Notes: generated by a model from the letters alone, not told the origin. DNA of 64,000 nucleotides from a virus (IMGVR_UViG_3300011337_000669), one strand, 5' to 3'; counted from the first letter of the stretch, positions 6,925 through 53,116 are shown. Translations and numbers: made by a program.

Positions 6925-7102
6925 AATTTTAGTTTTTTATTTTAAGTTTATTTGTTATCTTTGTTCCAAGATTTATGCCGATAGTGATTATATGACATTA
7001 TGACAGAAAAAGATTTAATAACATTAAATATTTCCTGACAATTTGTCCAATCATTGGGATAAGAATAAAAATTGTTATTACTTTGTAAAAACTAAAAACG
7101 TT

Positions 7103-11736: not shown

Positions 11737-12150
11737 GGGGTAGAAAGGTATAGATTGGCATTGTTGGAAATAAGTGGCACGTAGTCAGAATTCATCTATG
11801 ACTTAAATCTATGGTGAAGAAAGTAACCGGCAATACTCTTGCTAAGATGGCTGCTCTAGGTTTAACTAGAGAAGCGTCTGTTGTAACTGCTTAATTAGTA
11901 GATATAACGTCGGGTCGAATGGGCATATAACCTCGGAACAGAAGCCCTCCAAGGTGGATACCACCCGAAGCGTATCAAAAGGTCTCGTTCAGAGGGCTAC
12001 CTTATTACAAGTGAACTCGACACAGTTATTGGTGACAATGTCAAAATAGAAACCAAATATTTCGGAAGGTATGAAAAACCTTGACCTAAACGTGTAGGCA
12101 TTTATTGTCAAGATGAGCAAGACCGCAGTTCGAATCTGCGCTACTCCACC
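11737..12150 (+). ncRNA. ssrA: tmRNA
   Basis: Acceptor GGGGTAG/CTACTCC with G3:U wobble, discriminator A, T arm GCAG-TTCGAAT-CTGC, internal tag ORF 11829-11894 after TAACC resume context, upstream TACATTTG promoter. Confidence 0.93.
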
Positions 12151-12156
12151 TTCAAC

Positions 12157-15868: not shown

Positions 15869-16026
15869 GTCTTGAATTTTATCAACAATAATTAGGAGGA
15901 ACCCTCTCTCAAACCTGAATTTCAACATTATCAAATGGCTATGTTCTTGTTAAGTGAAAAAACTTTTGATAATTTTTGAATTACGTAAAATATTAGTATT
16001 TTTGTATCACATAGACATCAACCGAT

Positions 16027-18763: not shown

Positions 18764-19369
18764 ATGCGAGTTTTATTTTTGGATAATGATGGAGTAATTT
18801 GCCTCAGTAGTAATTGGGGTTCCCGCCACAAAAAACAAGATAAGTGGGGTGGGAAAAAATTGTCTATGGATATAACATCAATTCCTGTTGAATGTCGTTT
18901 TGATAATTTCGATAAAAAAGCGGTAAAAGTTCTAAATCAAATATTAGAAACCACAGGTGCTGAAATCGTAGTTAGTTCTGATTGGAGATTACACGGTACC
19001 TTAGAAGAGTTGGGAGAATACTACACATCTCAAGGTATCATCAAAAAACCAATCGGATTCACCGAAGTATTCCATTACACAAATTGGTTAGAAGACGGTC
19101 GTGTCCCATCTGATTTTGAATGGAATAGGACCGATGGCCGAGAACAAGAAAGACATTTCGAAATTAAAGATTATCTAAAATCACATCCCGAAATTACACA
19201 TTGGGTAGCCATTGATGACCTTCACATGGGTATTCATGTCACAAACAGCTCTTATGGCCCATTTGATAGAGATTGGGGGTTAGAACACTTCGTATGGACA
19301 CCGAGAGATTGGGAAGGAATAAAACAAAGTGGTATTAAACAAAAAATAATAAAACATTTATCATGCTAG
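18764..19369 (+). CDS. HAD phosphatase, Swiss-army-knife RNA-repair type
   Basis: FLDNDGVI, IVVSSDWR, WVAIDDL motifs. Confidence 0.8.
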   Translation: MRVLFLDNDGVICLSSNWGSRHKKQDKWGGKKLSMDITSIPVECRFDNFDKKAVKVLNQILETTGAEIVVSSDWRLHGTLEELGEYYTSQGIIKKPIGFTEVFHYTNWLEDGRVPSDFEWNRTDGREQERHFEIKDYLKSHPEITHWVAIDDLHMGIHVTNSSYGPFDRDWGLEHFVWTPRDWEGIKQSGIKQKIIKHLSC

Positions 19370-21949: not shown

Positions 21950-22100
21950 CTGTAAGGGATGGATTCGAACCACCACGAGGAGATTCAACAAGTAACATAT
22001 CGCCGGCCGGCTGGTGGTCTACCCCCTCATATTACTTATCTATTTCTTTATCCCCACCCCCGAGACAGGAGGGTTTGTCTGCCAATTTCAACACCTTACA
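21950..22100 (-). tRNA. tRNA-Asp(GTC)-like RNA with ~80-nt variable-arm insertion
   Basis: Acceptor TGTAAGG/CCTTACA, D arm TTG-AAATTGGCAGA-CAA, anticodon arm CCCTC-CTGTCTC-GGGGG, T arm GGTGG-TTCGAAT-CCATC; 151 nt total. Confidence 0.65.
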
Positions 22101-22210: not shown

Positions 22211-22789
22211 TTAAAAATATGTTTGTTCAAAATAAAGAACTTGAAATTTGTCCGATTTGTCAACTAAATTCGATCCATTAATTAAATCATTAAATTCTAC
22301 AACTGATTCCCTTTGAATATTTCTGAATTGTTCAAGAAAGTCGAAAGTAATCAAATCTTCTGCAAATACATCCTGTGAATTTTTGGTGTATTGTTTCATC
22401 AAATACAACTCAAACTCATATGCTTGATGAACGATATCGATCAGGTTGTCAAATTCAAATTTCTCTTTGTTTCCTTCCACAAAAGGGATGATGTTGAAAT
22501 CTGTCATGTACTTTTGAAGGATTTCCGCATGTTCCAACTCTGTTTTGGAGTCAGCATCAAAAAATGCTGCAGCTTTTTTATAATTTTGGTCATGGCACCA
22601 GTTTGCAGCTGCTCTGTATAATCCATGAGCGTGATATTCGTCTTTGATTCTGTCATTAAGCATTTTAACAACCTTATCACTTAACTTATAAAGTTTCGGT
22701 TCATTATTTTTCGATGGAACGTTTTTTGCTTGTTCTGAAAGCTGCACCATTCTATATAATTGTTCTTTAGTTAGAGTTACTTTTTCCAT
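22211..22789 (-). CDS. Ferritin-like protein
   Basis: LNDRIKDEYHAHGLYRAAANW, ELEHAE, YEFE, FLEQFRNIQRE ferroxidase-type pattern. Confidence 0.8.
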   Translation of the reverse strand: MEKVTLTKEQLYRMVQLSEQAKNVPSKNNEPKLYKLSDKVVKMLNDRIKDEYHAHGLYRAAANWCHDQNYKKAAAFFDADSKTELEHAEILQKYMTDFNIIPFVEGNKEKFEFDNLIDIVHQAYEFELYLMKQYTKNSQDVFAEDLITFDFLEQFRNIQRESVVEFNDLINGSNLVDKSDKFQVLYFEQTYF

Positions 22790-22885
22790 ATTAATAAATA
22801 TATCAAAATAAAAAAAAATAACATTCTATGTGCGTTGCGCCCTCACTTCCAGTTCCCAATCGAGTTCCTTCGTCATAGAATGTTA

Positions 22886-22973
22886 TGGCAGAGAATATTG
22901 GATTCGAACCAATGCATCCCTTTCGAGATGACAGATTAGCAATCTGCTCCTTTAACCACTCAGGCAATTCTCT
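22886..22973 (-). tRNA. tRNA-Ser(GCT)
   Basis: Loop TTGCTAA, long variable arm, encoded CCA. Confidence 0.92.
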
Positions 22974-23035
22974 ATTAATTTATTCATGTTCCAAAACTCG
23001 CTTTTTTTTGATGTTTTGGAACATCAATAACTCAG

Positions 23036-23106
23036 ATGTCTTATGAGGATTCGAACCTCAACTAAGTCAGCCAAAGTGACTTGTGCTACCGTTACACCAT
23101 AAGACA
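23036..23106 (-). tRNA. tRNA-Gln(TTG)
   Basis: Stem AGTCA/TGACT, loop CTTTGGC. Confidence 0.9.
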
Positions 23107-23111
23107 AAATG

Positions 23112-23192
23112 TGGGATCGGAGGGATTTGAACCCCCAATGTCGAAAGACGGATGATTTACAGTCATCGGAGCAGCCGTTGCTCAACGATCCC
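23112..23192 (-). tRNA. tRNA-Tyr(GTA)
   Basis: Loop CTGTAAA, long variable arm GTC-TTTC-GAC. Confidence 0.9.
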
Positions 23193-23415
23193 AAAGTTAG
23201 GAAAGGAGAAGATGGTTCAGTGGACATCTCCTTTTACGATTGGCGTTACTATAATGATTTCAAACTCCAAATGTACCACCTCCATCATCAGGTTAACATA
23301 CATTCATTCCCCAATCAACCTATAAATGTTCTTCAGCATTCTACTCCCAGCTCCGAGGAATCGTATCTAACTTAGCCCATCTCACTGCTGTATGGGTACT
23401 GAAGTTTACATTTTG

Positions 23416-23486
23416 CACACCCACCAAGACTCGAACTTGGAACAACGGGTTTGGAGACCGTGATGATGCCATTTCACCATAGATGC
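23416..23486 (-). tRNA. tRNA-Trp(CCA)
   Basis: Loop CTCCAAA, T arm CCAAG-TTCGAGT-CTTGG. Confidence 0.9.
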
Positions 23487-23903
23487 TTACTTCTTTAACA
23501 ACCAAGACGAAGATTGGATTTTATCTCCGAGTCCATCAATCAACTTAATCCCCCACCAATCACATACCTGTCTCTCAGGGATCGAATTATTGTTTTGGTC
23601 TCCACCATTGGCGAAAATAAGTTCGTTTGCTGGATCCTCTCCAGAATGAATCATACCGAGTGTCTGACACACAGTTCTATCTGTATCAATAGATAGAATT
23701 GCTTTGTCAACCATTTTCAGGTTTTCGATAATGAACATTCTTTCATCTTCGTCTTGGAACTCTTTACTACCTTTTAATTCTCTCTGTTTGTCGTTGTTGA
23801 CAATCACATAGAGTTTATCACCATGTTCTTTGGCTTTATTGAAATATTCAATATGACCTTTATGAACAGGATTAAAATAACCGCTTACAATTACAATTTT
23901 CAT
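23487..23903 (-). CDS. Cytidylyltransferase-like protein (RfaE/TagD family)
   Basis: VSGYFNPVHKGH (HxGH), VIVNND, FANGGD, IQSSS. Confidence 0.85.
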   Translation of the reverse strand: MKIVIVSGYFNPVHKGHIEYFNKAKEHGDKLYVIVNNDKQRELKGSKEFQDEDERMFIIENLKMVDKAILSIDTDRTVCQTLGMIHSGEDPANELIFANGGDQNNNSIPERQVCDWWGIKLIDGLGDKIQSSSWLLKK

Positions 23904-24077
23904 CTCATTTCGTAGGTTAAAGTTTCCAATTCTAATTCACTTTCATAGAAATATGGACAAGCCCAAACAGGTTTATCACATTTGAGTTTAACCATTCTTC
24001 CTTTGTTGTATCCAAGAGAAATGACTGTTGCCCATCCTGAATATCTTGTCTTAACTCTGTCACCAACTTTTAATTCA

Positions 24078-24386
24078 CTAAATGTCATCTTCTGCAGTAT
24101 TGAGTTCAAAGTTACTAAATTTTAATCCCCACATCAAAGAAATCATAGACATTTCTTTTTCAGCCATTTTAGCATACATACGAAGTTCTTTCATAAGGTA
24201 TTTTTTACCCCATTTTTTCCATTCTTCGTTTTGTTCCATAGTCATAGTCCAATCAGTATACCAACTATCCTTACGGTCCTTAACATCGTCAAAAGTTACA
24301 GGATGACCTGCAATCTCGAACATCTTGTTTATCATATCGACAACCATTTTTTGTTTTTTCTGATCTTTAGATAATCTCGGTTTCAT
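24078..24386 (-). CDS. Hypothetical protein
   Basis: 102-aa ORF coupled to a 69-aa ORF (23900-24109). Confidence 0.5.
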   Translation of the reverse strand: MKPRLSKDQKKQKMVVDMINKMFEIAGHPVTFDDVKDRKDSWYTDWTMTMEQNEEWKKWGKKYLMKELRMYAKMAEKEMSMISLMWGLKFSNFELNTAEDDI

Positions 24387-24425
24387 AATTTTCTTTGTTT
24401 ATTGGTTGATGAGGTACTAATATAG

Positions 24426-24510
24426 AGGTGAGAGTGAGATTCGAACTCACGAGAAACTTTCGTTTATCAGTTTTGCAGACTGTTACCTTCAACCACTCGG
24501 CCATCTCACC
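24426..24510 (-). tRNA. tRNA-Cys(GCA) with a long variable arm
   Basis: GGTGAGA/TCTCACC, U73, loop CTGCAAA, extra arm AAAC-GAAA-GTTT. Confidence 0.85.
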
Positions 24511-24797
24511 TTAAGCCACTTGGGTATCTGACCATTGATAAGGTGCCAGGACGGGTTTCTAACCCGCTCTTCAGTTAATCACTGCGTGCTGCCATTTACA
24601 CCACCTGACTAATTTTTAGATTTCTAAAACTCATCCCTGACGGGGTAAAGAAACTCCATCTTATTTGTTTTTTGCGTAGTCAGGACAGGATTCGAACCTG
24701 TAATAGAAAGAGTACGCTATCTCGCTGCGTGACCAGTTACCTATCTATGTCAGTAACGCTAAACTCTGTGTCTACCAATTCCACCACCTGACTATTA

Positions 24798-24917
24798 TTA
24801 TTTCAGTAATTTTGACCAAATCTTAATTACCATGTCTCTTTGTGGAGATGGTTGTAATTTAGACCACCTATCAATCCACATTTGAATTTCATCTTTACTA
24901 ATAACTTTTTTACTCAT
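24798..24917 (-). CDS. 39-aa micro-ORF between tRNA-like elements
   Basis: MSKKVISKDEIQMWIDRWSKLQPSPQRDMVIKIWSKLLK*, fills the gap exactly. Confidence 0.5.
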   Translation of the reverse strand: MSKKVISKDEIQMWIDRWSKLQPSPQRDMVIKIWSKLLK

Positions 24918-25327
24918 AACTTTTGATTTTAAGTAGTCAGGACAGGACTCGAACCCGTATTAATTTACATATTGAATGGGTGTCAACTTAATGTCTTCCA
25001 ATCAATCATCAATCTACCATTAGCTTTCGCCACCTGACTAATTTTTAGATTTCTAAAACTCATCCCTAACGGGGTAAAGAAACTCCATCTTATTTGTTTT
25101 TTGCGTAGTCAGGACAGGACTCGAACCTGTATTATCACGATGCGTAGAATTAAGGGAGCTTATTCCTTAATTGTGATATTACCTACATAGCGTACACCAA
25201 TTTCGCCACCTGACTTAAAAAACACTTTAGTCGCGGGGAACCCATCTTCCGCTTCTTACTAGATTCTTGTAGCTTACTTACTTAAGTTCATACCGTTACT
25301 ACTAGGGAACCCAACATTGTGTTTTTG

Positions 25328-25386
25328 TGGAGTGGAGGGAGTCGAACCCTCTGCCTGTACCTGTACGGCTTTAAACAAACCACTCC
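25328..25386 (-). ncRNA. 59-nt D-armless tRNA-like domain
   Basis: GGAGTGG/CCACTCC + A, T arm GAGGG-TTCGACT-CCCTC, short central stem GCC-GTAC..GTAC-GGC. Confidence 0.65.
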
Positions 25387-25833
25387 TAAGCCTGCAGAGC
25401 TGTTACAACTATCGCATTAATCTCATATGCTATTTCCATAGGTTAGAAAATGTGAGTCTCAAACCAACATTATATAGTTGCCTATTCTTTTTCAAACTTA
25501 GTTTTAGTTGCTTTCCATGCGCAAGGCTCATAACTAATTTCCAGTATCGCCACGTGGAGGCGTTTGAATGATACCGCTGGGCTTCGTTATTCTCCTTTCG
25601 GATATTGTTTCATACCTTACTCCGGCCTTATCTCGAGTTGACCGTTTGTGGCTTCTTATACAATTTATTTTAATTCAGCATCCCCTACTGCCCGTTTGGA
25701 TGCGTTTATGAATTTATTAGTCTATTCCTAATAGGCAACTCTGGAATCACCAGAATATCTGTCCGGTCTGTTCACATTATCGTAACCGCCTGTTACGTTA
25801 AGAACCGAAGCATGTGGCCGGCAATCATTACAT
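25387..25833 (-). ncRNA. Candidate large structured ncRNA (~450 nt)
   Basis: No long ORF on the transcribed strand; 11-bp long-range helix (25476-25486 with 25730-25740); hairpins TCC-GAAA-GGA, CGTAAC/GTTACG, GCATCC/GGATGC, CTGG/CCAG, TTAGTT/AACTAA. Confidence 0.6.
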
Positions 25834-25980
25834 TGTAGTCAGGACAGGATTCGAACCTGTAAGAGAGTTACTATCCTTCACTCTCCCGTTTAGTTATTAT
25901 CAGACTTTTAATGAGGTCGTATCTCGTGTTGAACTGTTTTACCTAAATAGCGTCTCTCCATTGCGCGACCTGACTGTATT

Positions 25981-26118
25981 TTAGATATAAATTTGAATTA
26001 TTAAGAAAGGAATTTCCAATGAAATATATCTACGATTTGGTATACTAGAAGTCCCCCATGCTATCATCAATCCTATTTGATTGGAAGTCATTAGTCTTCC
26101 CCATTTATATTCTTTCAT
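25981..26118 (-). CDS. 45-aa micro-ORF, copy 1 of a duplicated cassette
   Basis: MKEYKWGRLMTSNQIGLMIAWGTSSIPNRRYISLEIPFLIIQIYI*; near-identical copy at 26888-27025. Confidence 0.6.
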   Translation of the reverse strand: MKEYKWGRLMTSNQIGLMIAWGTSSIPNRRYISLEIPFLIIQIYI

Positions 26119-26241
26119 ATATTTTTTATTTAAGTAGTCAGGACAGGATTCGAACCTGTGATAGACGCTCCTTAGAGTCCGCTATCTTGGCAGCCAATTC
26201 CGCCACCTGACTTTATTCTATTTATTAAGTTATCGTTTTGC

Positions 26242-26469
26242 TTATTTATGAGTTATGCGATAATTGCCTTTAAACTTTGAGTATAAGATTTCGTTGTAAT
26301 GTCTATTACATTCGTACTGATATACAAATTCACCATTGTTTTTACACCACATAACGAAATCTATTGCTTCTTTTTGTAGCAACATATCACTAACATTAGA
26401 TAACCACAATTGCTTGTTGTATTCATCTATTGTGGTTTGTGCTTTTTTATAATCCTCTTCTGTTATCAT
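26242..26469 (-). CDS. Hypothetical protein between tRNA-like elements
   Basis: 75-aa ORF. Confidence 0.5.
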   Translation of the reverse strand: MITEEDYKKAQTTIDEYNKQLWLSNVSDMLLQKEAIDFVMWCKNNGEFVYQYECNRHYNEILYSKFKGNYRITHK

Positions 26470-26887
26470 AATTTTTTTATTAAATTATCAATTGTGTTTA
26501 TCTGTAACTGTTGTAGTCAGGACAGGATTCGAACCTGTAAAATAGTTTAACAAACTATTGGTGTGCACTACCTTTAAGGTTTCTAAGTCTTACAAGTTAT
26601 TATGCTTTACTTCCCGAGCGTCTACCAATTCCGCCACCTGACTATTGTTTTAAAAGATTAACCATTCAGGAGCTTCACCTGCTTTTGATAGGACTGATAC
26701 CTCCAAGTTAATGGTCAATATCGAGCTTTTTACTTTAGTTAATCTTTTGTAGTCAGGACAGGATTCGAACCTGTTACAATAGATTCAATTGGTTTCCCAT
26801 CTTTTGCAGGTTATTACACTATCTCAGATTTTCGCCCTACTCATAGTTTATTATACCGCTATTGTACTTCCGCCACCTGACTATTTT

Positions 26888-27025
26888 TTAGATATAAATT
26901 TGAATTATTAAGAAAGGGATTTCCAATGAAATATATCTACGATTTGGTATACTAGAAGTCCCCCATGCTATCATCAATCCTATTTGATTGGAAGTCATTA
27001 ATCTTCCCCATTTATACTCTTTCAT
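26888..27025 (-). CDS. 45-aa micro-ORF, copy 2
   Basis: Differs from copy 1 by a few substitutions with frame retained. Confidence 0.6.
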   Translation of the reverse strand: MKEYKWGRLMTSNQIGLMIAWGTSSIPNRRYISLEIPFLIIQIYI

Positions 27026-27036
27026 ATATTTTTTAT

Positions 27037-28149
27037 TTATTTCTCCAAAACGTACTTCATCATCTCTTGCATCTTGATAATCATAAGTTCCATTTCGTCC
27101 TTACTAAGATACAACCTACCGTTTAATGTTTTATCATCCAACTCCCTGACTTCAACTATGATACCATCAAACATCTCAGTTGGATAAATTTCAACATTCT
27201 GTTCTTCAGTTGCAATAACTGTTTTGTTCCAAACTTTATTTTTCATAACTTATTTCTTTTTGAATTGTTCAAACCATTGTTCTAATGTCATCTTCTTTCC
27301 TGCTAACAAATCTTCTGTATGCTTATAAAGTATATTTAATACTTCTTCCTCACTATACATTCTTTCTTCTTTAGGTTTTTCTTTTGGAAGAAACATATAT
27401 GTTTCTTTTGGAATGATTATTTTGTAACCAAACTTTTCAAACCCGTATGAATTAACAGAAATTTCAGAGCCATATTCATTTAATGCAACCAATTCCACTT
27501 CAACTTCCTCACAACTTGAGTTCTTAACAAACCATTGTAAAAACTCATCATCAATAGCTTGAACACCATATTTGATTAAGTCTCGGTCTGTTGTTAGGAC
27601 TACTGGGTTAGAAGCACTTTCTAAATCTTTAGACATCAAATATGACACTTGAACTAATCTACCATATTTAGTGATAACATAATCACTATCGTTAATATCT
27701 TCATCAGAAGTGATGTAGATATTTACTTCATCATCACAAACTGAATTTTTATACTCACTTGTAATCGTCAAATTATCTTCAATTAAATGCAGCCTACTTG
27801 GTTTATCTGTTGGTAATATGTGAATGTTTTTCATGGCTTTTACAGTTTAAGTTCCTTTCTTATTACTCCACTAATGTCCGAAAAAGATTTTAGAATTCCA
27901 AGAGGTTTATCAATTATTTATCTTTTGAAGCCAGGACAGGACTCGAACCTGTAATTATTACTTACGGAAAATATCCCATTTATTTAATAAAGTTTGAGGA
28001 GTCCAATTATATTTCCTATTTTCAACTAACATCTTTGCGACATTTTCATATAATTCGTGGTATAATTGTTTATAATCAATATCACTAACATCAGCCATAT
28101 CCAATTTGGGTGTCTCTGCTTTATTAAAATCCTTTTCTTCTTTTTTCAT
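27037..28149 (-). CDS. Three small hypothetical genes (27037-27246, 27250-27834, 27958-28149)
   Basis: ORF track; co-oriented with the tRNA island. Confidence 0.55.
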
Positions 28150-28504
28150 TTAATCTTAATTTTAATTGTAGTCAGGACAGGAATCGAACCTGTAAATTAT
28201 TAAGTGTTTCATTCTATAAATCTCTCTCACCATTACGTTTAGAGTAAGTTTTTAATTCATTATAGAGAACTACACAGGTTTTAACGTTTGCCATTCCGCC
28301 ACCTGACTAAATGTTTTTAGTTACTTTATCAACACTTCTCCAAGAACCACCTCGGCCAATTTATATCAATTTCACTTAGGTTACGTCATGATTCTACTGG
28401 TTAGGCGTCCTCAATCTAAACCTGTTTGTAGTCAGGGCCGGACTCGAACCGGATAAACAACCATTTCTGGATTCGGGAACCAATCCCTCATTACGTCCAC
28501 CTGA

Positions 28505-28717
28505 CTATTTTAATATTTCATTTTTTCTACCACTAACAGTTTCAACTAACCAAGCAGTCTCAATTAACTCTAAATAAGATATTGGTTTTCCTCTATCAGT
28601 ATCACAAATAACTTTTTGTCTTTGTTCACAGTAATATCCTTCGGAAGTTAATCGAAATTCCTCACCATCAGACATTCTAACCAAATCACCTTTTCTCCAA
28701 GCACTTAACACATTCAT
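28505..28717 (-). CDS. Hypothetical protein between tRNA-like elements
   Basis: 70-aa ORF; a further 44-aa ORF (28831-28965, MKWIIRQF...CQICGRWWKL) fills the next gap. Confidence 0.5.
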   Translation of the reverse strand: MNVLSAWRKGDLVRMSDGEEFRLTSEGYYCEQRQKVICDTDRGKPISYLELIETAWLVETVSGRKNEILK

Positions 28718-29099
28718 ATTTTTTATTTAAGTTGTTTGTAGCCAGGACAGGACTCGAACCTGTAACTTTTGTCTTTTGGTTCCGAAAATCGGATTACTCA
28801 CCAACACGCTACCCTTGCGTCACCTGACTATTATAATTTCCACCACCTACCACATATTTGACATTCTTGTGGTCCGTAAGCTTTATGCATTTTATGTTTA
28901 TCTAAAACAAAGTCATGTACAAATAAACACCGTACGTTTCCAAATTGTCTAATAATCCATTTCATATATTTTTCATTTGTAGTCAGGGCCGGACTCGAAC
29001 CGGATAAACAACCTTTTCAGGACTCAGGAACCAATCCCTCATTACGTCCACCTGACTGTGTTGATACAAATATGGTAAACTATTTTCGATATGCCAAAT

Positions 29100-29861
29100 T
29101 TATTTTTTTCTCGTTTTAGAATTCCTATTATTACCAACTCCAGCACATGTTCTCGAACAATATACATTTTCTTCTTGACATGATTTTCCACATACTCTAC
29201 ACTCGTTCGTTAACTTTTTATGCGGGTTTTCTTCATACAAACGTATAAAATCTTTTCCATATTTACCTTCAACATACTCAAACTCTTTTTTCAAATTTTC
29301 CTTGTATATTACTTGCAGGTTTGAGACGGATTTTAATTTTGTTCGTATGTGTTCATCCGTATACCCTTTAATTTCAATCAACTCACCATTTATAATAAAA
29401 TCCGGAACATACTTTCTTTTTTTGCCTTCCCAAACATATTCAAATTCCTGAGTGTTTCTAACAAAAGAGTTCCCATGTTCAATGTTGAAGATGACCCAAG
29501 CCAGTTCATAACTACTATCACACCAATAACCTTTATACCACCCACCCTTACCGACACCAGAACCTTTACGATATCCACCCGAACATTTCGTCCAACATTC
29601 TGCATGATATTTTTTCGGTTTCCATTTTGTGTGGATTATTTCATTACCACAAAATAAACAAATGGATTTAACTAAACTTTCTTCACCTGATGTTTTTCCC
29701 TTGTTCCAAGGGATCTGACCCAAATTCGAATTTCTTTTCTTTTCATTAGTTTTCTCACTGAAAACTCTACTATTCCTACACTGTATGGTACAATAGTTAA
29801 TCAACCCTTTAGTGGGGGTAAACTCAACACCACATTTCTTACAATTAGACATACAATCCAT
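29100..29861 (-). CDS. Putative homing endonuclease, PD-(D/E)xK type with Zn fingers
   Basis: CxxC clusters at both ends; WCDSSYELAW...YVPDF.I...LIEIKGY. Confidence 0.7.
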   Translation of the reverse strand: MDCMSNCKKCGVEFTPTKGLINYCTIQCRNSRVFSEKTNEKKRNSNLGQIPWNKGKTSGEESLVKSICLFCGNEIIHTKWKPKKYHAECWTKCSGGYRKGSGVGKGGWYKGYWCDSSYELAWVIFNIEHGNSFVRNTQEFEYVWEGKKRKYVPDFIINGELIEIKGYTDEHIRTKLKSVSNLQVIYKENLKKEFEYVEGKYGKDFIRLYEENPHKKLTNECRVCGKSCQEENVYCSRTCAGVGNNRNSKTRKK

Positions 29862-29913
29862 TTAATTATAAATATCAAGTCGAACCCGAAAAGTAATCGT
29901 GATTACTAAAAAG

Positions 29914-29985
29914 TATTGCTATGGGGATTCGAACCCCAGACTCCTCATAGAAAGTGAGACGTGATAACCCCTTCACTATAGCAAC
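29914..29985 (-). tRNA. tRNA-Glu(TTC)
   Basis: Loop CTTTCTA, T arm TGGGG-TTCGAAT-CCCCA. Confidence 0.9.
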
Positions 29986-30035
29986 ATTTCAAGGACAAAG
30001 ATACTACAATATTTCAAAGAACAAAAATAAGTCAT

Positions 30036-30246
30036 AAAAAAACCCCAAACTTTTTTTAAGAGTTCGGGGTTTGAAAAATTAGTTTTTACAAGTAAAAAAA
30101 ATTTCTATCTTATGACATCCGAACTACAGGGCAAATAGGTTCATAACAACAATTTTCTTGTTGATTATTACTGATGATATTATGACTTGTAGTTCTCATT
30201 GTTCTATAATTACTTCAAATGTATGAAATGTTTTTATTTTGTCAAA
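30036..30246 (-). promoter_or_regulatory. Promoter, 29-aa leader peptide and attenuator-like terminator
   Basis: TTTG (30243-30246), 19 nt, TACATTTG (30216-30223); leader ORF 30110-30199 MRTTSHNIISNNQQENCCYEPICPVVRMS; terminator AAACCCCGAAC..GTTTGGGGTTTTTTT. Confidence 0.7.
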
Positions 30247-30258
30247 TGTTTTTTTTCG

Positions 30259-30330
30259 TAGCCCCACCAAGACTCGAACTTGGAACATCTGCTTAGAAGG
30301 CAGAAGTTATATCCCTTTAACTATGGAGCC
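30259..30330 (-). tRNA. tRNA-Arg(TCT)
   Basis: Loop CTTCTAA. Confidence 0.9.
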
Positions 30331-30343
30331 ATAATCTATTGAA

Positions 30344-30508
30344 TTACTTCAATAAATCAATCTTTTTTGCAACTTCTTCGGCTTCCGCCATAAGTTTGTC
30401 CGCTTGTGCTCTGTTGGAATGAGAAGCCTTATACGCGTCTTCCATCAACTTTTTGTAAGTTTCCTGTAACTTTTCCTTCTCAGTCTTCTTCTTGAATATT
30501 CCGAACAT
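30344..30508 (-). CDS. Lacal_2735-family small protein
   Basis: Manual translation MFGIFKKKTEKEKLQETYKKLMEDAYKASHSNRAQADKLMAEAEEVAKKIDLLK; matches my recollection of this Bacteroidota family. Confidence 0.7.
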   Translation of the reverse strand: MFGIFKKKTEKEKLQETYKKLMEDAYKASHSNRAQADKLMAEAEEVAKKIDLLK

Positions 30509-30551
30509 AATTTAGAATTAACACTATCGTCTTTGAAAGTTTATTTAACGT

Positions 30552-30797
30552 TTATGCCTTTCGGCTAGATAATTTACTTTCAAGTTTATCAAGACGTGAA
30601 TCTATTGTTCGATAAATGTCGTCAACAATTCTATCACGATCTCTCAGTTGATTTTCAATCTCCCTTGCGAGATATTGTTCAATCATTTCAATCTCCTTTT
30701 TTTGTTTATTCACCCTAACAAAAGCTATAACCGCAACCACAGCAACCGCAATGACCACAACTATAGACATTCCTAAAATAAATGATATTAAATCCAT
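30552..30797 (-). CDS. Small single-pass membrane protein
   Basis: N-terminal hydrophobic helix then coiled coil. Confidence 0.55.
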   Translation of the reverse strand: MDLISFILGMSIVVVIAVAVVAVIAFVRVNKQKKEIEMIEQYLAREIENQLRDRDRIVDDIYRTIDSRLDKLESKLSSRKA

Positions 30798-30833
30798 ATG
30801 ATTTTCTCCTTTATTTCAAAGAACGATAGTGTC

Positions 30834-30919
30834 TGGTATCAGAGATGGGAGTCGAACCCACACGAGCTTTCGCCCAGCAAATTTTAAGTCTGCCATGTAT
30901 ACCATTTCATCACTCTGAC
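30834..30919 (-). tRNA. tRNA-Leu(TAA)
   Basis: Loop CTTAAAA, variable arm GGGC-GAAA-GCTC, encoded CCA. Confidence 0.92.
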
Positions 30920-30945
30920 ATTATTTAACAAATATAGTGAAAGTT

Positions 30946-31596
30946 TTAGATACTTTCAACCCGATTTTTCATTATCTCACAGTATTTCTCATCCACCTCG
31001 TAACTGATAGAATCAAACCCCAACTCTTTTGCAACTTTACTGGTGGTACCACTACCACCGAAAACGTCGATGATTGTTTGGTTCGGTTCCGCAGTTGTTA
31101 AGATAATTCTTCTGATAACTTCCTCAGGGATTTGACAAGGGTGTTCGGTCTTTTCCTTACTCACATTCTTTACCTGATTGATTTCCCACCAATCATAAAG
31201 TTTTGCTCCCGTCTTTCCTTCGGCAATTCGTTGTTGAATCCTTTTATCTTTGAGATTTTTGTATGGTTGTCTAACCTTTCTAAAATCAGGTTTGCATCCC
31301 CACCATGAAATTAAACGACTTTGTTTCCCTGTGTTTGAATTATACACCCAACAAACAACCTGTTCACACTTGGCGTTTATTGCCTTTGGTAACAAGTTGA
31401 TTGTTTCTTCAGGGTAATGAATGATTACACAAGGGGTGGGTATTTTGGATAATAGTTCAATATAATCCTCTTCACTTAACTTGTCTTTGTATTCGTTGTA
31501 CGAATATTCTTGATTATAAGGTGGGTCTGTAATTGTTAATCCTTTCGGTATGACGCAGTTTCTGAAGTCGTCATTGATAATTGTTGTTTCCACCAT
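30946..31596 (-). CDS. DNA methyltransferase (N6-A/N4-C, beta class)
   Basis: ITDPPYN (motif IV) before EHPCQIP and IDVFGGSGTT (motif I). Confidence 0.9.
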   Translation of the reverse strand: MVETTIINDDFRNCVIPKGLTITDPPYNQEYSYNEYKDKLSEEDYIELLSKIPTPCVIIHYPEETINLLPKAINAKCEQVVCWVYNSNTGKQSRLISWWGCKPDFRKVRQPYKNLKDKRIQQRIAEGKTGAKLYDWWEINQVKNVSKEKTEHPCQIPEEVIRRIILTTAEPNQTIIDVFGGSGTTSKVAKELGFDSISYEVDEKYCEIMKNRVESI

Positions 31597-31613
31597 AAAA
31601 TTAGTTAATCACC

Positions 31614-32312
31614 TTAAAATTCTTCTTCCCATATTGTATTGGTTTCATCCAACATGGTATTGTATGTGTGTTGTAATATAACTGTTTTTTCATTAAAATC
31701 AAACTGGAATTCTCCTTGAGATCCTTCATTAATTTCCCAACCTCCGAAGTTATCACTCAATTGTTGATAACACCATTCTTCTACTGCTCCTGGTGATGGC
31801 TCTCCATTATCAAAATCCGATTCGATGTATCCACTATCCCCACCTCCATTATACTTCAAGGTCAAATAACCATCTTCAGGAATTGAGACATCATCGAAAA
31901 CACCTTTTTCTTCCCACTCTTCAATCATATCATCGTATTCGATCCCCATTGAATCTCCCTCAGTGAAATAACTATAGATGTGAGTTAAGGATATTTCTCT
32001 TTTAACTCCGTCGATTGTAATCTCGAATCGTTGATAATCGATGTCACCATCATTAGGTAAGTTACTGTATAAATCGGAGTCATCAACATAGTCGATAATT
32101 TTTTTCAATATTGGGACAAGTCCGTCTGGAATTTCTGCAGTATAATTATTGTCAAAGTGGGTTGGAAAATCATTTGGATTGTATGAAATTTCTTCGTCGT
32201 CCGTATCCATTTCAAAATTAATTTCTCCATACTTCATTCCCAATGAACTGAGATATCTTGAAACTTTCCCTAAATATTTTTTTTCTTCTGGTGTTAAAAT
32301 TTTTTCTGCCAT
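31614..32312 (-). CDS. Hypothetical protein, DUF6878-like C-terminal domain
   Basis: YNGGGDSGYIE...GWEINEGSQGEF pattern; next to a DUF6915-like gene. Confidence 0.55.
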   Translation of the reverse strand: MAEKILTPEEKKYLGKVSRYLSSLGMKYGEINFEMDTDDEEISYNPNDFPTHFDNNYTAEIPDGLVPILKKIIDYVDDSDLYSNLPNDGDIDYQRFEITIDGVKREISLTHIYSYFTEGDSMGIEYDDMIEEWEEKGVFDDVSIPEDGYLTLKYNGGGDSGYIESDFDNGEPSPGAVEEWCYQQLSDNFGGWEINEGSQGEFQFDFNEKTVILQHTYNTMLDETNTIWEEEF

Positions 32313-32323
32313 ACAAATAAATA

Positions 32324-32677
32324 TCAGTCTTCGAATTCTAATTTAATTGTCTTCAACATCCACTGTGGTCTTTGATTGGACATCATGTTGTTAACCCATT
32401 CTTTTGCCGATGGAATATAGTTATTACAATCCTCTTTTATATGCTGTTCTCCAACATAACGGGTGTACACCGTTTTTCCATCTGAGTTTTTGAATTCAGT
32501 TCCAAACCTTTTCTCCATTTCAAATATTCCTTCACTATGATGTCTCCACATTCTATGTAAAGAATCACCAAACCAAGATTTGGTCTCATCCAACCATTCG
32601 TGTAAGTGGATATAATCTTCAGGTTTTCCACCAAATTTTTTGGCAGATGATTTCGCGTGTAAGTTTGGATGTGCCAT
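32324..32677 (-). CDS. DUF6915-like protein
   Basis: MAHPNLHAKSSAKKFGG...HEWLDETK...HRMWRHHSEG...GEQHIKED. Confidence 0.7.
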   Translation of the reverse strand: MAHPNLHAKSSAKKFGGKPEDYIHLHEWLDETKSWFGDSLHRMWRHHSEGIFEMEKRFGTEFKNSDGKTVYTRYVGEQHIKEDCNNYIPSAKEWVNNMMSNQRPQWMLKTIKLEFED

Positions 32678-32811
32678 TAGATTTTATTTGTGAAAAAAAA
32701 ATTGTAACGTCTGTACGGTTTGTTTCCCATCCACACTTTTATTGTGTATCGAAAGTTTCCATTTCATACTTAGCGTCCGTTCCGTCATTCTTACGAATCG
32801 TTACAATTATG

Positions 32812-32893
32812 CAGAGGAGACAGGACTCGAACCTGCAAAGCTTTTACACCCGACGCTTTTCAAGAGCGCTCGACAACCACTGTCCACTCCTCT
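32812..32893 (-). tRNA. tRNA-Ser(TGA)
   Basis: Loop CTTGAAA, long variable arm, G73. Confidence 0.88.
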
Positions 32894-32996
32894 AAATAGG
32901 AATGGGCATTTGCAACTACCCATCCCCTTCAAATGACTTACCCTGGGACGCTGTTCTTATGGGTAGCGTGGTAAGTACTGTTGATTAATTCAAAAA

Positions 32997-33068
32997 AGCC
33001 CCCGTCCGGAATCGAACCGAATTATCATGATTACAAGTCATGCGCATCGCCAGCAATGCTTAAGGGGC
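32997..33068 (-). tRNA. tRNA-Thr(TGT)
   Basis: Loop CTTGTAA, stem CATGA/TCATG. Confidence 0.88.
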
Positions 33069-33085
33069 ATATAATTAAATATCTG

Positions 33086-33157
33086 TGGACCCGGGGAATC
33101 ATGATATCCCGACCTTCGCTTTATGAGAGCGCTGCTCTTCCTCTGAGCTACGGGTCC
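33086..33157 (-). tRNA. tRNA-CAT (Ile2 or Met) with atypical T loop
   Basis: GGACCCG/CGGGTCC, loop CTCATAA; T loop reads ATCATG-like instead of TTCRA. Confidence 0.75.
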
Positions 33158-33310
33158 ATATTATCTTCGTTTTCAATGATAATATTCTTTATCGTAAAAA
33201 TCAACGATGTACTTACATCAAATCAACATGACAAAGGTAATAAAATTTTTCATTCACAACAACTTTCGTTTCTAAAAAAAATAAATTACTTTTGTTGAAA
33301 TATTTGATAA

Positions 33311-33796
33311 ATGAGTACAGTATTGGTTTTGAATTCTGACTACACTCCCCTGAACGTAACAAGTGTTCAGAGAGGATTCGTGTTGGTCACCAAAGGAAAG
33401 GCGGAAGTGTTAAGGTCGGATGAGAATCCGATTGTGACAGGTTACAAGACGTTTATACGACCCGTTATCATACGCCTATTAAAATATATCAGACATAGAA
33501 CAAGACTCAACAAACCCAACCGTAGTCGCATTTATAAAAGGGACGGATATGAGTGTGTTTATTGTGGGTCGAAAAAAAATCTAACCTTAGACCACGTTAT
33601 TCCCAAATCAAGAGGTGGTTCAAATGAATGGACAAACTTGGTTACCTGTTGTTCAAAGTGTAATCGAGATAAGGACAACAAAACTCCTGATGAGGCAAAA
33701 ATGCCAATGAAAAGACCGGCATTCGAGCCACCAATAATGTATGATGATGTGGCATTATTAAATGTTTGGACAGATTTCCAAAAATCTTTTGTATAA
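33311..33796 (+). CDS. HNH endonuclease (McrA-like)
   Basis: VLVLNSDYTPL N-domain; RDGYECVYCG...LTLDHVIPKSRGG..W.NLVTCCSKCN..K. Confidence 0.9.
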   Translation: MSTVLVLNSDYTPLNVTSVQRGFVLVTKGKAEVLRSDENPIVTGYKTFIRPVIIRLLKYIRHRTRLNKPNRSRIYKRDGYECVYCGSKKNLTLDHVIPKSRGGSNEWTNLVTCCSKCNRDKDNKTPDEAKMPMKRPAFEPPIMYDDVALLNVWTDFQKSFV

Positions 33797-34545: not shown

Positions 34546-35247
34546 ATGGGATATATTTATTTGTTGGTCGACACTAGAAATGGTAAAAAATATGTTGGTA
34601 AACATAACGGTAATAACAAAAATTATTGGTCATCAGGCATTTTACCGAATAGAATCGCCGAAAAATACGGTCGATCCGTGTTCACTAAATGTATATTGGA
34701 AGATAATATACCTGAACACTTGTTAAATGAAAAAGAGATTTATTTTATAGATAGAGAAAATTCTTTTACAGATGGATATAATTCAACTAAAGGTGGTGAT
34801 GGGGGAGGAGAATGGATATATCATAAATCTAAAGAAGAAAAAAAGAAAATCTCTGAAAATAAATCGAAGAAACTTTCAGGGAGAACTTTTTCTGATGCCA
34901 CTATTTTGAAAATGAAAGAATCAGGTAAGAAAAAAAAATTGACTGATGAACATAAAAAAAATATATCTATTGCGGTAAAAAAAAGAGGGGGGTTTCCACA
35001 TAGTGAAGAAACTAAAATGAAATTATCAGAGTTGAAGAAGGGAACGAAAAATGATCCTCACTCCAATTTCATGAAAACGAATAATCCGAATTTTTGTAAA
35101 ATTAGTATCAATGGAATTATTTATAAATCAATAAAAGAATATTCTATAATACATAAGATTTATTACAATACTGTAAAAAATAGATTAAATTCTAAAACAA
35201 AAAAATTTGAAGAATGGTTTAGGGTTAAAAACGAAAAAGAGGGGTAA
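34546..35247 (+). CDS. GIY-YIG homing endonuclease with NUMOD3-like repeats
   Basis: GYIYLLVD..NGKKYVGK, YNSTKGGDG, HSEETKMKLSE. Confidence 0.85.
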   Translation: MGYIYLLVDTRNGKKYVGKHNGNNKNYWSSGILPNRIAEKYGRSVFTKCILEDNIPEHLLNEKEIYFIDRENSFTDGYNSTKGGDGGGEWIYHKSKEEKKKISENKSKKLSGRTFSDATILKMKESGKKKKLTDEHKKNISIAVKKRGGFPHSEETKMKLSELKKGTKNDPHSNFMKTNNPNFCKISINGIIYKSIKEYSIIHKIYYNTVKNRLNSKTKKFEEWFRVKNEKEG

Positions 35248-53114: not shown

Positions 53115-53116
53115 AA

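What the first reader, a model, noticed from the sequence alone, without database searches (positions are those of the whole stretch)
24543..29057. Array of 12 tRNA-scaffold elements with constant acceptor/T arms and completely variable anticodon domains, alternating with micro-ORFs and ncRNAs
Seen: every copy keeps AGTCAGG/CCTG(A/G)CT, discriminator A and a T arm (mostly ACAGG-TTCGAAT-CCTGT), most keep a Leu-like D arm (GGCGGAATTGGTAGACGC), but the anticodon region is replaced by unrelated, self-folding sequence, giving lengths of 68-140 nt and no canonical anticodon loop. All are on the same strand, usually one per gene or RNA cassette. Established: RNase P, 3' processing nucleases, CCA enzyme and EF-Tu read the acceptor/T-arm half; host anticodon nucleases cut the anticodon loop. 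Inference, not exclusive: (a) punctuation marks that let host tRNA processing cut a long transcript into mRNAs and ncRNAs; (b) stable tRNA chassis displaying diverse RNA cargo as decoys or aptamers against tRNA-targeting defences or uncharged-tRNA sensors; (c) recombination sites of an integron-like cassette array. I know no named family with this architecture.
Basis: partly seen in the sequence, partly recalled or inferred. Interest (0 to 1): 0.9.

Follow-up and report, generated by a model that had tools for sequence, protein, structure and literature searches.

The report
Phage tRNA-chassis RNAs with swappable cargo
A T4-like freshwater phage carries twelve genes for RNAs that keep the upper body of a leucine tRNA but replace the anticodon part with unrelated folded inserts. 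Hundreds of uncultured phages share this constant "chassis" with different inserts, so phages probably use the cell's tRNA-processing machinery to make a set of small RNAs whose jobs are still unknown.

Summary
On the minus strand of 24544-29057 lie 12 tRNA-like elements of 67-139 nt, plus one orphan 3' half. They have a 7-bp acceptor stem (AGTCAGG/CCTGACT), mostly A73, a tRNA-Leu-type D arm and a T arm, but no anticodon arm.

They belong to a large viral family:
- More than 200 unique elements and about 170 unrelated insert classes were found in 137 viral or MAG contigs.
- None is in isolate bacterial genomes, GenBank phages or Rfam.

Main evidence:
- Their flanks (T at -1, C74, no encoded CCA) match those of genuine tRNA genes in the same contigs. 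They are always co-oriented with those tRNAs.
- Apparent "anticodons" are no more frequent than with shuffled inserts.
- Inserts are conserved, covarying RNA domains. One window insert also occurs in a non-tRNA carrier.
- Acceptor stems covary in distant relatives.
- Elements pack tightly against micro-ORFs.
- Internal duplications begin and end inside the constant halves.

Best reading: non-decoding chassis RNAs matured like tRNAs, carrying portable cargo domains. Transcript punctuation and cassette shuffling follow as consequences. The biochemical function is unknown.

This scan has noted the same family on other DNA. I found no publication. T4 rnaC is the nearest precedent.

The parts
24544..24610 (-). 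Element E0, 67 nt, degenerate chassis copy (acceptor 3' strand CCTGGCA, T loop TTAGAAA)
   Evidence: model R1 E 1.8e-7
24678..24793 (-). Element E1, 116 nt, Leu-type D arm with a compensatory variant (GGTGG...GACAC). Its cargo family also occurs in L059, L302, L304 and L307.
   Evidence: Rfam tRNA 39.1 bits
24935..25039 (-). Element E2, 105 nt. Its cargo family also occurs in L048 and L102.
   Evidence: R1 E 5.6e-12
25107..25215 (-). Element E3, 109 nt
   Evidence: R1 E 3.2e-14
25837..25975 (-). Element E4, 139 nt
26136..26212 (-). Element E5, 77 nt. Its cargo family also occurs in L069, L297 and L296, the last with a different, compensated acceptor stem.
   Evidence: R1 E 8.7e-20
26515..26643 (-). 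Element E6, 129 nt, consensus chassis. Positions 5-26 are identical to E. coli tRNA-Leu genes.
26751..26882 (-). Element E7, 132 nt. Its roughly 85-nt cargo core occurs in the tRNA chassis in at least 9 contigs and in a non-tRNA long-stem carrier in 7 contigs.
   Evidence: alignment A3
27929..27953 (-). Orphan 3' half (T arm plus acceptor 3' strand CCTGGCT) with no 5' partner
   Evidence: R1 E 1.4e-4
28170..28308 (-). Element E9, 139 nt. An ortholog lies in L078, 92% identical over the element only.
   Evidence: Rfam tRNA 35.3 bits
28430..28506 (-). Element E10, 77 nt, type B subfamily. The stop codon TAG of the upstream ORF is T(-1)A1G2 of the element.
28740..28829 (-). Element E11, 90 nt, class I-like D arm
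   Evidence: R1 E 3.4e-14
28981..29057 (-). Element E12, 77 nt, second type B copy (92% identical to E10)
24798..24917 (-). Micro-ORF, 39 aa, bracketed by E2 (17 nt upstream of its ATG) and E1 (4 nt after its stop)
   Evidence: sequence
25981..26118 (-). Micro-ORF, 45 aa, copy 1 of the 172-nt repeat D2 (25961-26132)
26888..27025 (-). Micro-ORF, 45 aa, copy 2 of repeat D2 (26868-27039, 96%)
26242..26469 (-). ORF, 75 aa, between E6 and E5; no family hit
27037..27834 (-). Two ORFs (69 aa at 27037-27246, 194 aa at 27250-27834) inside the array. Both are conserved in 5 other loci. No family hit.
27958..28149 (-). ORF, 63 aa. Its ATG lies 20 nt after E9.
28505..28717 (-). ORF, 70 aa. Its ATG lies 22 nt after E11 and its stop overlaps the start of E10.
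28831..28965 (-). Micro-ORF, 44 aa. Its ATG lies 15 nt after E12 and its stop lies 1 nt before E11.
24611..24677 (-). 67-nt non-coding spacer, repeated at 25040-25106. Repeat D3 (110 nt, 95%) runs from one constant scaffold half to the next.
25216..25836 (-). 620-nt non-coding stretch between E4 and E3. It contains an acceptor/T-arm minihelix at 25325-25386 and has blocks conserved in L069 and L127.
26644..26750 (-). 107-nt non-coding spacer between E7 and E6. Similar sequence follows elements in L060 and L143.
28309..28429 (-). 121-nt non-coding spacer between E10 and E9
22886..24510 (-). Five canonical tRNA genes (Ser, Gln, Tyr, Trp, Cys) directly downstream of the array, on the same strand
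29913..33157 (-). Six canonical tRNA genes upstream of the array, on the same strand

Best explanation
The elements are genes for non-decoding 'tRNA-chassis' RNAs. A constant module derived from tRNA-Leu (acceptor stem, D arm with the U8-A14, A15-U48 and G18G19 core positions, T arm, A73) carries a variable, independently folding cargo domain in place of the anticodon and variable arms. INFERRED: the array is transcribed with the flanking tRNA genes and micro-ORFs as long precursors. Host RNase P cuts at the T(-1)/A1 junction, and the 3' end is trimmed and given CCA as for the phage's real tRNAs. This releases stable L-shaped small RNAs whose cargo is the active part. The same cuts release the neighbouring micro-ORF mRNAs with short A-rich leaders. 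SHOWN: the chassis is a conserved RNA fold. The cargo domains are conserved, covarying and portable. The elements carry the same flank signature as real tRNA genes. The constant halves act as recombination joints. NOT SHOWN: expression, the exact ends, aminoacylation by LeuRS, and what any cargo binds or does.
For: 1. Chassis. All 12 copies are found by a model built from other contigs. Positions 5-26 are identical to E. coli tRNA-Leu genes. T48, A14/A15, GG in the D loop and TTCGAAT are kept.
2. RNA-level helix. T stems, and in distant relatives acceptor stems, change in a compensatory way, for example AATTAGA/TCTAATT, AGCTAGG/CCTAGCT and ACTCATG/CATGAGT.
3. Processing context. Of 214 elements, 80% have T at -1 and 98% have C74, with no encoded CCA. 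The 156 canonical tRNA genes of the same contigs have 67% and 100%. Neighbouring tRNAs within 3 kb are on the same strand 450:0.
4. Not decoders. ARAGORN makes 42 calls on real elements against 30-41 with shuffled cargo. With introns allowed the figures are 144 against 127-141, and the anticodons are scattered.
5. Cargo is functional RNA. There are about 170 cargo classes. Homology between contigs stops at element borders. Type B shows 96.8% paired cells and covariation above all 500 shuffles. Hairpins in the E1 and E5 families carry compensatory changes. Mean folding z is -0.54, p 1.6e-9. The E7 cargo core is nearly invariant both in the tRNA chassis and in a different long-stem carrier.
6. 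Viral only. More than 120 IMG/VR contigs hold the motif. Only 16 MAG contigs do, and no isolate genome among 185,579 species.
7. Consequences. ORFs are packed tightly, and repeats D2 and D3 are bounded in the constant halves.
Against: There is no direct evidence of transcription, mature ends, CCA addition or charging. No cargo matches a known RNA family, and the cargo classes share no motif. Cargo folding is only modestly better than shuffles. No protein family consistently neighbours the elements. Phage contigs of 163-246 kb hold only 1-4 copies, so the system is dispensable in dose. The near-invariance of AGTCAGG could owe much to recent spread and gene conversion rather than selection. The exact-motif searches are also biased towards invariant copies. 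Tight ORF packing is equally what a purely cis-acting processing signal would show.
Confidence: 0.55

Rival explanations
1. Pure punctuation. The elements exist only as cis-acting cleavage signals, as tRNAs do in animal mitochondrial transcripts. They cut a long early transcript into micro-ORF mRNAs and spacer RNAs. The inserts are tolerated filler, perhaps kept diverse to limit recombination between repeats.
For: The next ATG-ORF start peaks 15-20 nt after an element (32/205 against 7/155 for canonical tRNAs). An upstream stop lies within 10 nt in 66/205 against 11/155. Leaders are AC plus an A/T-rich stretch with no SD-like motif (1/56). 14 stop codons are formed by T(-1)A1G2. No minus-strand terminator-like site lies in the array and promoter-like sites are not enriched. 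The flanks match those of real tRNAs.
Against: Filler would not be conserved at 90-97% between contigs whose flanks are unrelated. It would not keep invariant unpaired nucleotides and covarying helices across acceptor-stem lineages. It would not recur in a non-tRNA carrier. Only about a quarter to a third of elements abut ORFs. Large phage contigs have only 1-4 copies, clustered.
Confidence: 0.2
2. Decoys or sponges in the conflict over tRNAs. The anticodon-less chassis RNAs soak up host factors that recognise the tRNA body or CCA end, such as tRNA-targeting defence nucleases, CCA-modifying toxins or uncharged-tRNA sensors. The cargo tunes specificity. This is a specific version of the best explanation.
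For: The window encodes RNA-repair-type proteins: HAD_SAK_2 at 18764-19369, and Metallophos plus cREC_REC at 52407-53593. It also encodes a tmRNA and 11 tRNAs, so tRNA damage is a plausible pressure. Metallophos genes recur near elements in 13 loci.
Against: The cargo is not anticodon-arm-like beyond chance, so anticodon nucleases would have nothing specific to bind there. Co-occurrence with repair genes is loose: 13 of 137 loci, and 24 kb away in the window. No defence target is identified.
Confidence: 0.15
3. DNA-level element. The constant halves are primarily recombination or homing sites (functionally like PeSLs of T4-type phages or integron attC sites), or the whole element is a selfish repeat. 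The RNA fold is a relic of tRNA ancestry.
For: Repeats D2 (172 nt) and D3 (110 nt) start and end in the constant halves with different cargos beside them. Homology blocks end at element borders. HNH, GIY-YIG and other endonuclease-like genes lie nearby. A GIY-YIG family recurs in 13 loci.
Against: Compensatory changes keep the acceptor, T, D and cargo helices, which a DNA site does not need. tRNA tertiary-core nucleotides are retained. Orientation relative to tRNA genes is strictly the same, 450:0. No integrase was seen among the ORFs scanned.
Confidence: 0.1
4. Real tRNAs. The inserts are introns or unusual anticodon domains, and the mature molecules decode (for example as tRNA-Leu or suppressors).
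For: One relative on the same chassis is a canonical tRNA-Lys(UUU): L042:13031-13101, 66.3 bits. The Rfam tRNA model gives weak hits on four window copies.
Against: None of the 12 is called by ARAGORN. Calls on relatives equal those on shuffled cargo, with or without introns, and the anticodons are scattered. There is no group I intron signal in the array. Inserts of 20-90 nt are too small for self-splicing introns.
Confidence: 0.03

Closest known systems
Phage T4 stable RNAs rnaC ('species 1', 139 nt) and rnaD from the T4 tRNA gene cluster
   Same: These are small non-decoding RNAs encoded inside a T4-type phage tRNA cluster, on the tRNA strand, next to a GIY-YIG homing endonuclease gene (segB). 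rnaC ends in a GGGTTCGAATCCC T arm followed by an acceptor-like strand that pairs with its 5' end. Their function is still unknown (PMC3014915, PMC9697503).
   Different: There is no detectable sequence similarity. The rnaC acceptor is imperfect and rnaC has no Leu-type D arm. T4 has single genes, not a family with one constant chassis and about 170 cargo classes.
Engineered 'tRNA scaffold' for recombinant RNA expression (Ponchon and Dardel design; cited from my own knowledge, see also PMC3753655)
   Same: The anticodon arm of a tRNA is replaced by an arbitrary structured RNA, so that cellular tRNA enzymes process and stabilise the chimera. The architecture is the same.
   Different: That design is man-made. 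Here the arrangement is natural, diversified and exchanged among phages, and processing is inferred rather than shown.
tRNA punctuation of animal mitochondrial transcripts
   Same: tRNA-shaped units abut ORFs with almost no UTR. In 14 cases the stop codon overlaps the first nucleotides of the element.
   Different: In mitochondria the punctuating tRNAs are functional decoders. Here they cannot decode, and only about a quarter to a third of them abut ORFs.
PeSL cassettes of T4-type phages (PMC2839356, PMC4122927)
   Same: Short conserved repeats flank small ORFs in hyperplastic regions and mediate modular shuffling. Here repeats D2 and D3 and the homology blocks end in the constant halves.
   Different: PeSLs are early promoter plus stem-loop motifs. 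These elements are tRNA-fold RNA genes with a cargo.
tmRNA and YrlA-type Y RNAs (PMC4201824)
   Same: These are tRNA-like domains fused to another functional RNA domain. Both occur in phages.
   Different: tmRNA has G3:U70, pseudoknots and a tag ORF. In YrlA the RNA's ends form the Ro60-binding stem and the acceptor is capped. Neither layout applies here.
Non-translational pseudo-tRNA 'tRNA-Other' of Bacillus cereus (PMC3399842)
   Same: It is a tRNA-shaped RNA that does not act in translation but has a regulatory role.
   Different: It is a single chromosomal gene with a cloverleaf, with no variable cargo and no phage array.

Membership tests
Canonical tRNA (Rfam RF00005) | 7-bp acceptor stem and T arm with TTCRANY loop | tested here: met
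   Eleven of 12 have both; 24544-24610 deviates.
Canonical tRNA (Rfam RF00005) | Anticodon arm (5-bp stem, 7-nt loop with U33) that gives a defined anticodon | tested here: not met
   ARAGORN calls none of the 12. Calls on relatives equal those on shuffled cargo. Rfam scores are 27-39 bits, against 40-61 for the window's real tRNAs.
Canonical tRNA (Rfam RF00005) | Aminoacylation and use on the ribosome | not testable with these tools
   A73 and the Leu-type D arm with the A15-U48 positions are present. Charging needs an assay.
Intron-containing tRNA (group I or protein-spliced) | An insert whose removal restores a cloverleaf with a consistent anticodon, or an intron ribozyme core | tested here: not met
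   ARAGORN with introns allowed gives 144 calls against 127-141 on shuffles, with scattered identities. There is no Intron_gpI hit in 22500-33500.
tmRNA (RF00023) | tRNA-like domain plus tag reading frame and pseudoknots | tested here: not met
   There are only two tmRNA hits: a 17-bit partial hit at 25325-25386 in a spacer, not in an element, and the real tmRNA at 11737-12151.
YrlA / Y RNA with Ro60 | 5' and 3' ends form the Ro60-binding stem, the tRNA-like domain is internal, and an rsr (TROVE) gene is nearby | tested here: not met
   The ends form the acceptor stem. There is no Y RNA hit. No TROVE or DUF2828 domain was found in the 61 window ORFs scanned. The rest of the genome was not seen.
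T4 rnaC-like stable RNA of phage tRNA clusters | Non-decoding RNA in a T4-type tRNA cluster, with a T arm and paired termini | tested here: met
   Searches give the rnaC anatomy. The window has a T4-type terminase. This is the same kind, not sequence homology.
T4 rnaC-like stable RNA of phage tRNA clusters | Sequence or model-level homology to rnaC or rnaD | tested here: not met
   blastn of the array and of E5 against GenBank phages gave no T4-family hit.
Integron cassette array | Tyrosine-recombinase integrase and attC imperfect palindromes bounding ORF cassettes | tested here: not met
   No integrase domain was found in the scanned ORFs. The repeats are tRNA folds, not attC sites.
PeSL-type shuffling cassettes | Conserved repeat at cassette borders, with recombination joints inside the repeat | tested here: met
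   The ends of repeats D2 and D3 lie in the constant halves. Homology blocks end at element borders.
PeSL-type shuffling cassettes | The repeat is an early promoter plus terminator stem-loop | tested here: not met
   Promoter-like sites are not enriched, and there is no minus-strand terminator-like site in the array.

The most novel reading that the evidence does not exclude
A natural, modular RNA display system. One tRNA-Leu-derived chassis, accepted by the host's tRNA enzymes (RNase P, 3' trimming, CCA addition, perhaps LeuRS and EF-Tu), lets phages express and stabilise a diversified library of effector RNA domains. These domains are swapped between phages, and even between different carrier RNAs, by recombination in the constant halves. 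It would be an RNA counterpart of gene-cassette systems, probably serving host takeover or counter-defence.
Probability: 0.35. Interest if true: 0.9.

Novelty: new variant of a known kind. Interest (0 to 1): 0.78.

Why it matters
If these RNAs are made and processed as inferred, phages found the 'tRNA scaffold' trick long before RNA engineers did, and they use it at scale. About 170 unrelated cargo domains sit on one chassis in this small sample alone. That is a large pool of uncharacterised structured RNAs, possibly aptamers, decoys or regulators, and each comes with a ready-made expression chassis.

The family could also give a comparative handle on the 50-year-old question of what T4 rnaC and rnaD do. 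It shows how tRNA-shaped units can both punctuate transcripts and drive cassette shuffling in phage hyperplastic regions.

For annotation, such elements are currently either missed or mislabelled as tRNAs with arbitrary anticodons. ARAGORN called 42 of 205 relatives, no more than it called with shuffled inserts.

Tried and rejected
- **Decoding tRNAs or intron tRNAs:** rejected by shuffle controls.
- **Host tRNA or att site:** rejected. The 24-mer is in no isolate genome, only in 16 MAG contigs.
- **Known RNA families:** Rfam at gathering and lenient thresholds on the window, on 15 relatives' loci and on 5 loci holding the E7 cargo motif (three of them with the alternative carrier) gave only tRNA, tmRNA and one group I intron elsewhere.
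- **GenBank phages:** no copy of the chassis. Tenacibaculum phage pT24 has different odd 'tRNA-Undet' genes.
- **Literature:** sequence strings and several keyword sets found no description.
- **Dedicated partner protein:** clustering of ORFs around 137 and 77 loci found no family in more than 15-18% of loci. The 194-aa ORF inside the array has only hypothetical viral look-alikes.
- **Shared cargo motif:** none.
- **Antisense targets:** only one marginal match. The E2 cargo pairs 17/18 nt with the duplicated micro-ORF (E 0.01-0.04). Not pursued.
- **RNA libraries:** contigs from four runs of three studies cover element-sized pieces, for example a 116-nt contig equal to 24679-24794. Contigs cannot show transcription, ends or strand, and DNA carry-over is possible, so I do not count this as evidence.
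- **Whole genome:** none is held for this window.
- **Promoter scan:** sigma-70 consensus only, so it is uninformative if the host is Bacteroidota.
- **Ro60 and toxin-neutralising RNA leads from earlier notes:** not found in this window.

Full report
**1. Observation**

Read on the minus strand, 24544-29057 holds 12 elements. Each has the layout AGTCAGG, TG, a D arm, a variable segment, ACAGG-TTCGAAT-CCTGT, CCTGACT, then A and C. A 13th copy, only a 3' half, lies at 27929-27953.

- The 19-nt T-loop/acceptor motif occurs 12 times, all on the minus strand, against 0.00 expected in shuffles.
- A covariance model built from 30 relatives in other contigs, using only the acceptor and T pairs, finds all 12 at E 1e-7 to 1e-19. 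It finds no further copy in the 64 kb. The window's real tRNAs score lower.
- ARAGORN calls none of the 12. The Rfam tRNA model reaches 27-39 bits on four of them, against 40-61 bits for the 11 genuine tRNA genes that flank the array on the same strand.
- Constrained folds show one to three hairpins in place of the anticodon and variable arms.

**2. What the chassis is**

- Positions 5-26 of the consensus element are 100% identical to tRNA-Leu genes of all 5,426 E. coli genomes searched. The D arm is therefore a class II Leu D arm.
- Across relatives the 5' 19 nt and 3' 25 nt are nearly invariant. T precedes the T stem at the position of U48, matching A15.
- From established tRNA knowledge, U8, A14, A15-U48, G18G19 and the T54-A58 loop build the elbow and core. 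A73 plus this D-arm geometry, not the anticodon, are the E. coli LeuRS identity set (my own knowledge). Charging is therefore conceivable, but it is untested.

**3. A large, purely viral family**

- Among one genome for each of 185,579 prokaryote species it occurs in only 16 short MAG contigs. Many come from lakes and several are binned as Bacteroidota.
- No cultured phage in GenBank has it.
- In 137 loci I extracted 213 complete elements. Of these, 208 are unique, with a median length of 103 nt and most between 53 and 190 nt. Their inserts fall into about 170 unrelated classes.
- Phage contigs of 163-246 kb hold 1-4 clustered copies, so 12 in one array is unusually rich.
- The window is from a T4-type phage: it has a T4-type terminase, a prohead protease and homing endonucleases. 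DNA runs holding most of the array include riverine metagenomes.
- SD-less, A-rich leaders and the MAG labels hint at a Bacteroidota host. This is inference.

**4. They are handled like tRNAs but are not decoders**

- In the same contigs, 156 canonical tRNA genes with other acceptor stems have C at position 74 in 156/156, rarely CC (15/156), and T at -1 in 67%.
- The 214 chassis elements show the same signature: C74 98%, CC 12/214, T(-1) 80%, A73 93%.
- U(-1) is the preferred RNase P context in bacteria (my own knowledge).
- Neighbouring tRNA genes within 3 kb are on the same strand in 450 of 450 pairs.
- ARAGORN assigns an 'anticodon' to 42 of 205 relatives. It does so for 30-41 when the insert is shuffled. 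With introns allowed the figures are 144 against 127-141, with scattered identities.
- The single clear exception is a canonical tRNA-Lys(UUU) built on the same acceptor and T arm (L042, 66.3 bits). This shows that the chassis is compatible with a real tRNA body.

**5. The helices are RNA helices**

T stems show compensatory variants.

The two window copies 28430-28506 and 28981-29057 belong to a distinct 'type B' subfamily found in 65 contigs.

- On 34 sequences, a five-helix structure has 96.8% paired cells, five pairs with double changes, and a covariation score above all 500 shuffles and all slid controls.
- The structure comprises the acceptor, a 4-bp helix in the D-stem position that encloses two hairpins, and the T stem. 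One of the hairpins has tandem G-A pairs and a GG loop.
- When type B is searched by its inner motif only, members appear with acceptor stems GATTAGA/TCTAATC, AGCTAGG/CCTAGCT, AATCAAG/CTTGATT and AATTAGG/CCTAATT.
- Likewise, the E5 and E1 cargo families occur with ACTCATG/CATGAGT and AGTTAGA/TCTAACT.

AGTCAGG is therefore one lineage's version of a covarying helix, not a fixed DNA site.

**6. The cargo is real, portable RNA**

- Similarity between the window and other contigs is element-bounded. E1, E2, E5, E7 and E9 each match one to three other contigs at 88-97% over the element only, with unrelated flanks.
- Cargo hairpins show compensatory changes.
- Cargo regions fold better than dinucleotide shuffles: mean z -0.54, p 1.6e-9.
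- Most telling is the E7 cargo. Its roughly 85-nt core is almost invariant in the tRNA chassis in at least 9 contigs. In 7 other contigs the same core is closed by a 16-17-bp stem inside a different, non-tRNA carrier, and that closing stem covaries.

A domain that is kept intact while its carrier changes is what a functional module looks like. None of the cargos matches Rfam, and there is no motif common to all classes. Their activities remain unknown.

**7. Consequences for the locus**

- The array is a dense series of element, 15-22-nt A-rich leader, micro-ORF, 0-5 nt, and the next element. In some units a non-coding spacer takes the place of the ORF.
- Family-wide, the distance to the next ATG-ORF peaks at 15-20 nt (32/205 against 7/155 for real tRNAs). 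An upstream stop lies within 10 nt in 66/205 against 11/155.
- In 14 cases, including 28505-28717 followed by E10, the stop TAG is T(-1)A1G2.
- No terminator-like site lies on the minus strand inside the array. This is weak evidence, because the scan uses sigma-70 and intrinsic-terminator rules.
- Cleavage at the element ends would therefore release monocistronic mRNAs, as in mitochondrial punctuation. Where the stop overlaps, it would leave the upstream message without a stop codon. The phage's own tmRNA (11737-12151) is worth remembering here, but I did not test any link.
- At the DNA level, the 172-nt repeat (25961-26132 and 26868-27039) and the 110-nt repeat (24596-24705 and 25025-25134) both begin and end inside constant scaffold halves, and the cargos beside them differ. 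This is the footprint of crossovers in the scaffold, functionally like the PeSL cassettes of T4-type phages (PMC2839356, PMC4122927).

**8. Interpretation**

The data fit best a two-part RNA. The chassis secures maturation, and probably stability, through the host tRNA pathway. The cargo does the specific job. Punctuation and shuffling follow from placing such units among small genes.

A decoy role in the conflict over tRNAs is attractive, because the window encodes RNA-repair-type domains: HAD_SAK_2, and Metallophos plus cREC_REC. The link is loose, however.

Expression is not shown. Contigs from RNA libraries of three studies cover element-sized pieces, but contigs cannot prove transcription or ends, so I set this aside.

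**9. Comparison and novelty**

- The nearest precedent is T4 rnaC. It is a 139-nt stable RNA in the T4 tRNA cluster with a T arm and paired termini, and its function is still unknown.
- The engineered tRNA scaffold has the same architecture.
- tmRNA, YrlA, group I intron tRNAs and integrons each fail a defining feature (see Membership tests).
- Earlier notes of this scan describe the same family on other genomes and reach similar readings. I treated them as leads and re-derived the points here.
- New in this report: the flank parity with real tRNAs, the shuffle controls, acceptor covariation, ORF-packing statistics, repeat joints inside the scaffold, and a cargo shared with a non-tRNA carrier.
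- I found no publication describing the family.

Noticed in passing
window 11737-12151 (+): Phage-encoded tmRNA (Rfam 63.8 bits, full length), on the strand opposite to the tRNA array. tmRNAs also lie next to chassis elements in L077, L013 and L010.
   Followed up: no
window 25216-25836 (-): 620 nt with no convincing ORF, between E4 and E3. It holds an acceptor/T-arm minihelix (25325-25386, weak tmRNA-end hit). Blocks are conserved in L069 (97% over 25587-25713) and L127. There is no Rfam family hit, so it may be one or more further structured RNAs.
   Followed up: partly
window 21951-22100 (-): 150-nt tRNA-like element with a different acceptor stem (TGTAAGG/CCTTACA), a Leu-like D arm and a long G+C-rich insert. 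It overlaps the 5' end of the dTDP-sugar epimerase ORF call (R1 E 0.07).
   Followed up: no
window 54503-54593 (-): 91-nt tRNA-like gene far from the array, with a hairpin inserted in the D loop and a 6-nt 'anticodon' loop. ARAGORN does not call it (R1 E 6e-4).
   Followed up: no
window 18764-19369, 52407-53593, 5185-5928: RNA-repair-type proteins: HAD_SAK_2 (E 9.5e-21), a Metallophos plus cREC_REC gene pair (E 8.5e-13 and 2e-21), and a weak nucleotidyltransferase. These suggest that the phage repairs cleaved RNA ends.
   Followed up: partly
137 related loci: All 156 canonical tRNA genes in these phage contigs encode C74 but usually not C75A76 (A at position 75 in 58%). This uniform 3' context points to one particular 3'-maturation route in the host.
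   Followed up: partly
L281, L282, L286, L287, L288, L293, L295: The E7 cargo core sits in a second kind of carrier RNA, with flanks ATAACGGAATTGG... and ...CCATGTTAT and a further conserved CACTTNNTTATAAC box about 100 nt downstream. It has no Rfam match and may be another undescribed phage RNA.
   Followed up: partly
window 24950-24970 versus 26077-26093 and 26984-27001: The E2 cargo has 17/18-nt complementarity to the mRNA of the duplicated 45-aa micro-ORF (E 0.01-0.04). This could be chance.
   Followed up: no
L042:13031-13101: A canonical tRNA-Lys(UUU) (Rfam 66.3 bits) built on the same AGTCAGG acceptor and ACAGG T arm as the non-decoding elements.
   Followed up: no
window 29100-29861, 33311-33796, 34546-35247, 41540-42502, 50630-51289: Five homing-endonuclease-like genes (weak endonuclease hit, HNH, GIY-YIG, DUF559-like, NUMOD3) lie around the tRNA region, as segB does in T4.
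   Followed up: no
window 7043-9118 and 13382-15934: The phage encodes a ClpB-like double AAA+ protein and a TonB-dependent-receptor-like outer-membrane beta-barrel protein. Both are unusual auxiliary genes.
   Followed up: no
L121 (Tenacibaculum phage pT24, 192.0-192.5 kb): This cultured flavobacterial jumbo phage carries two near-identical 'tRNA-Undet' genes with odd anticodon regions among long non-coding spacers. They use a different chassis but may be an analogous case in a cultivable system.
   Followed up: no
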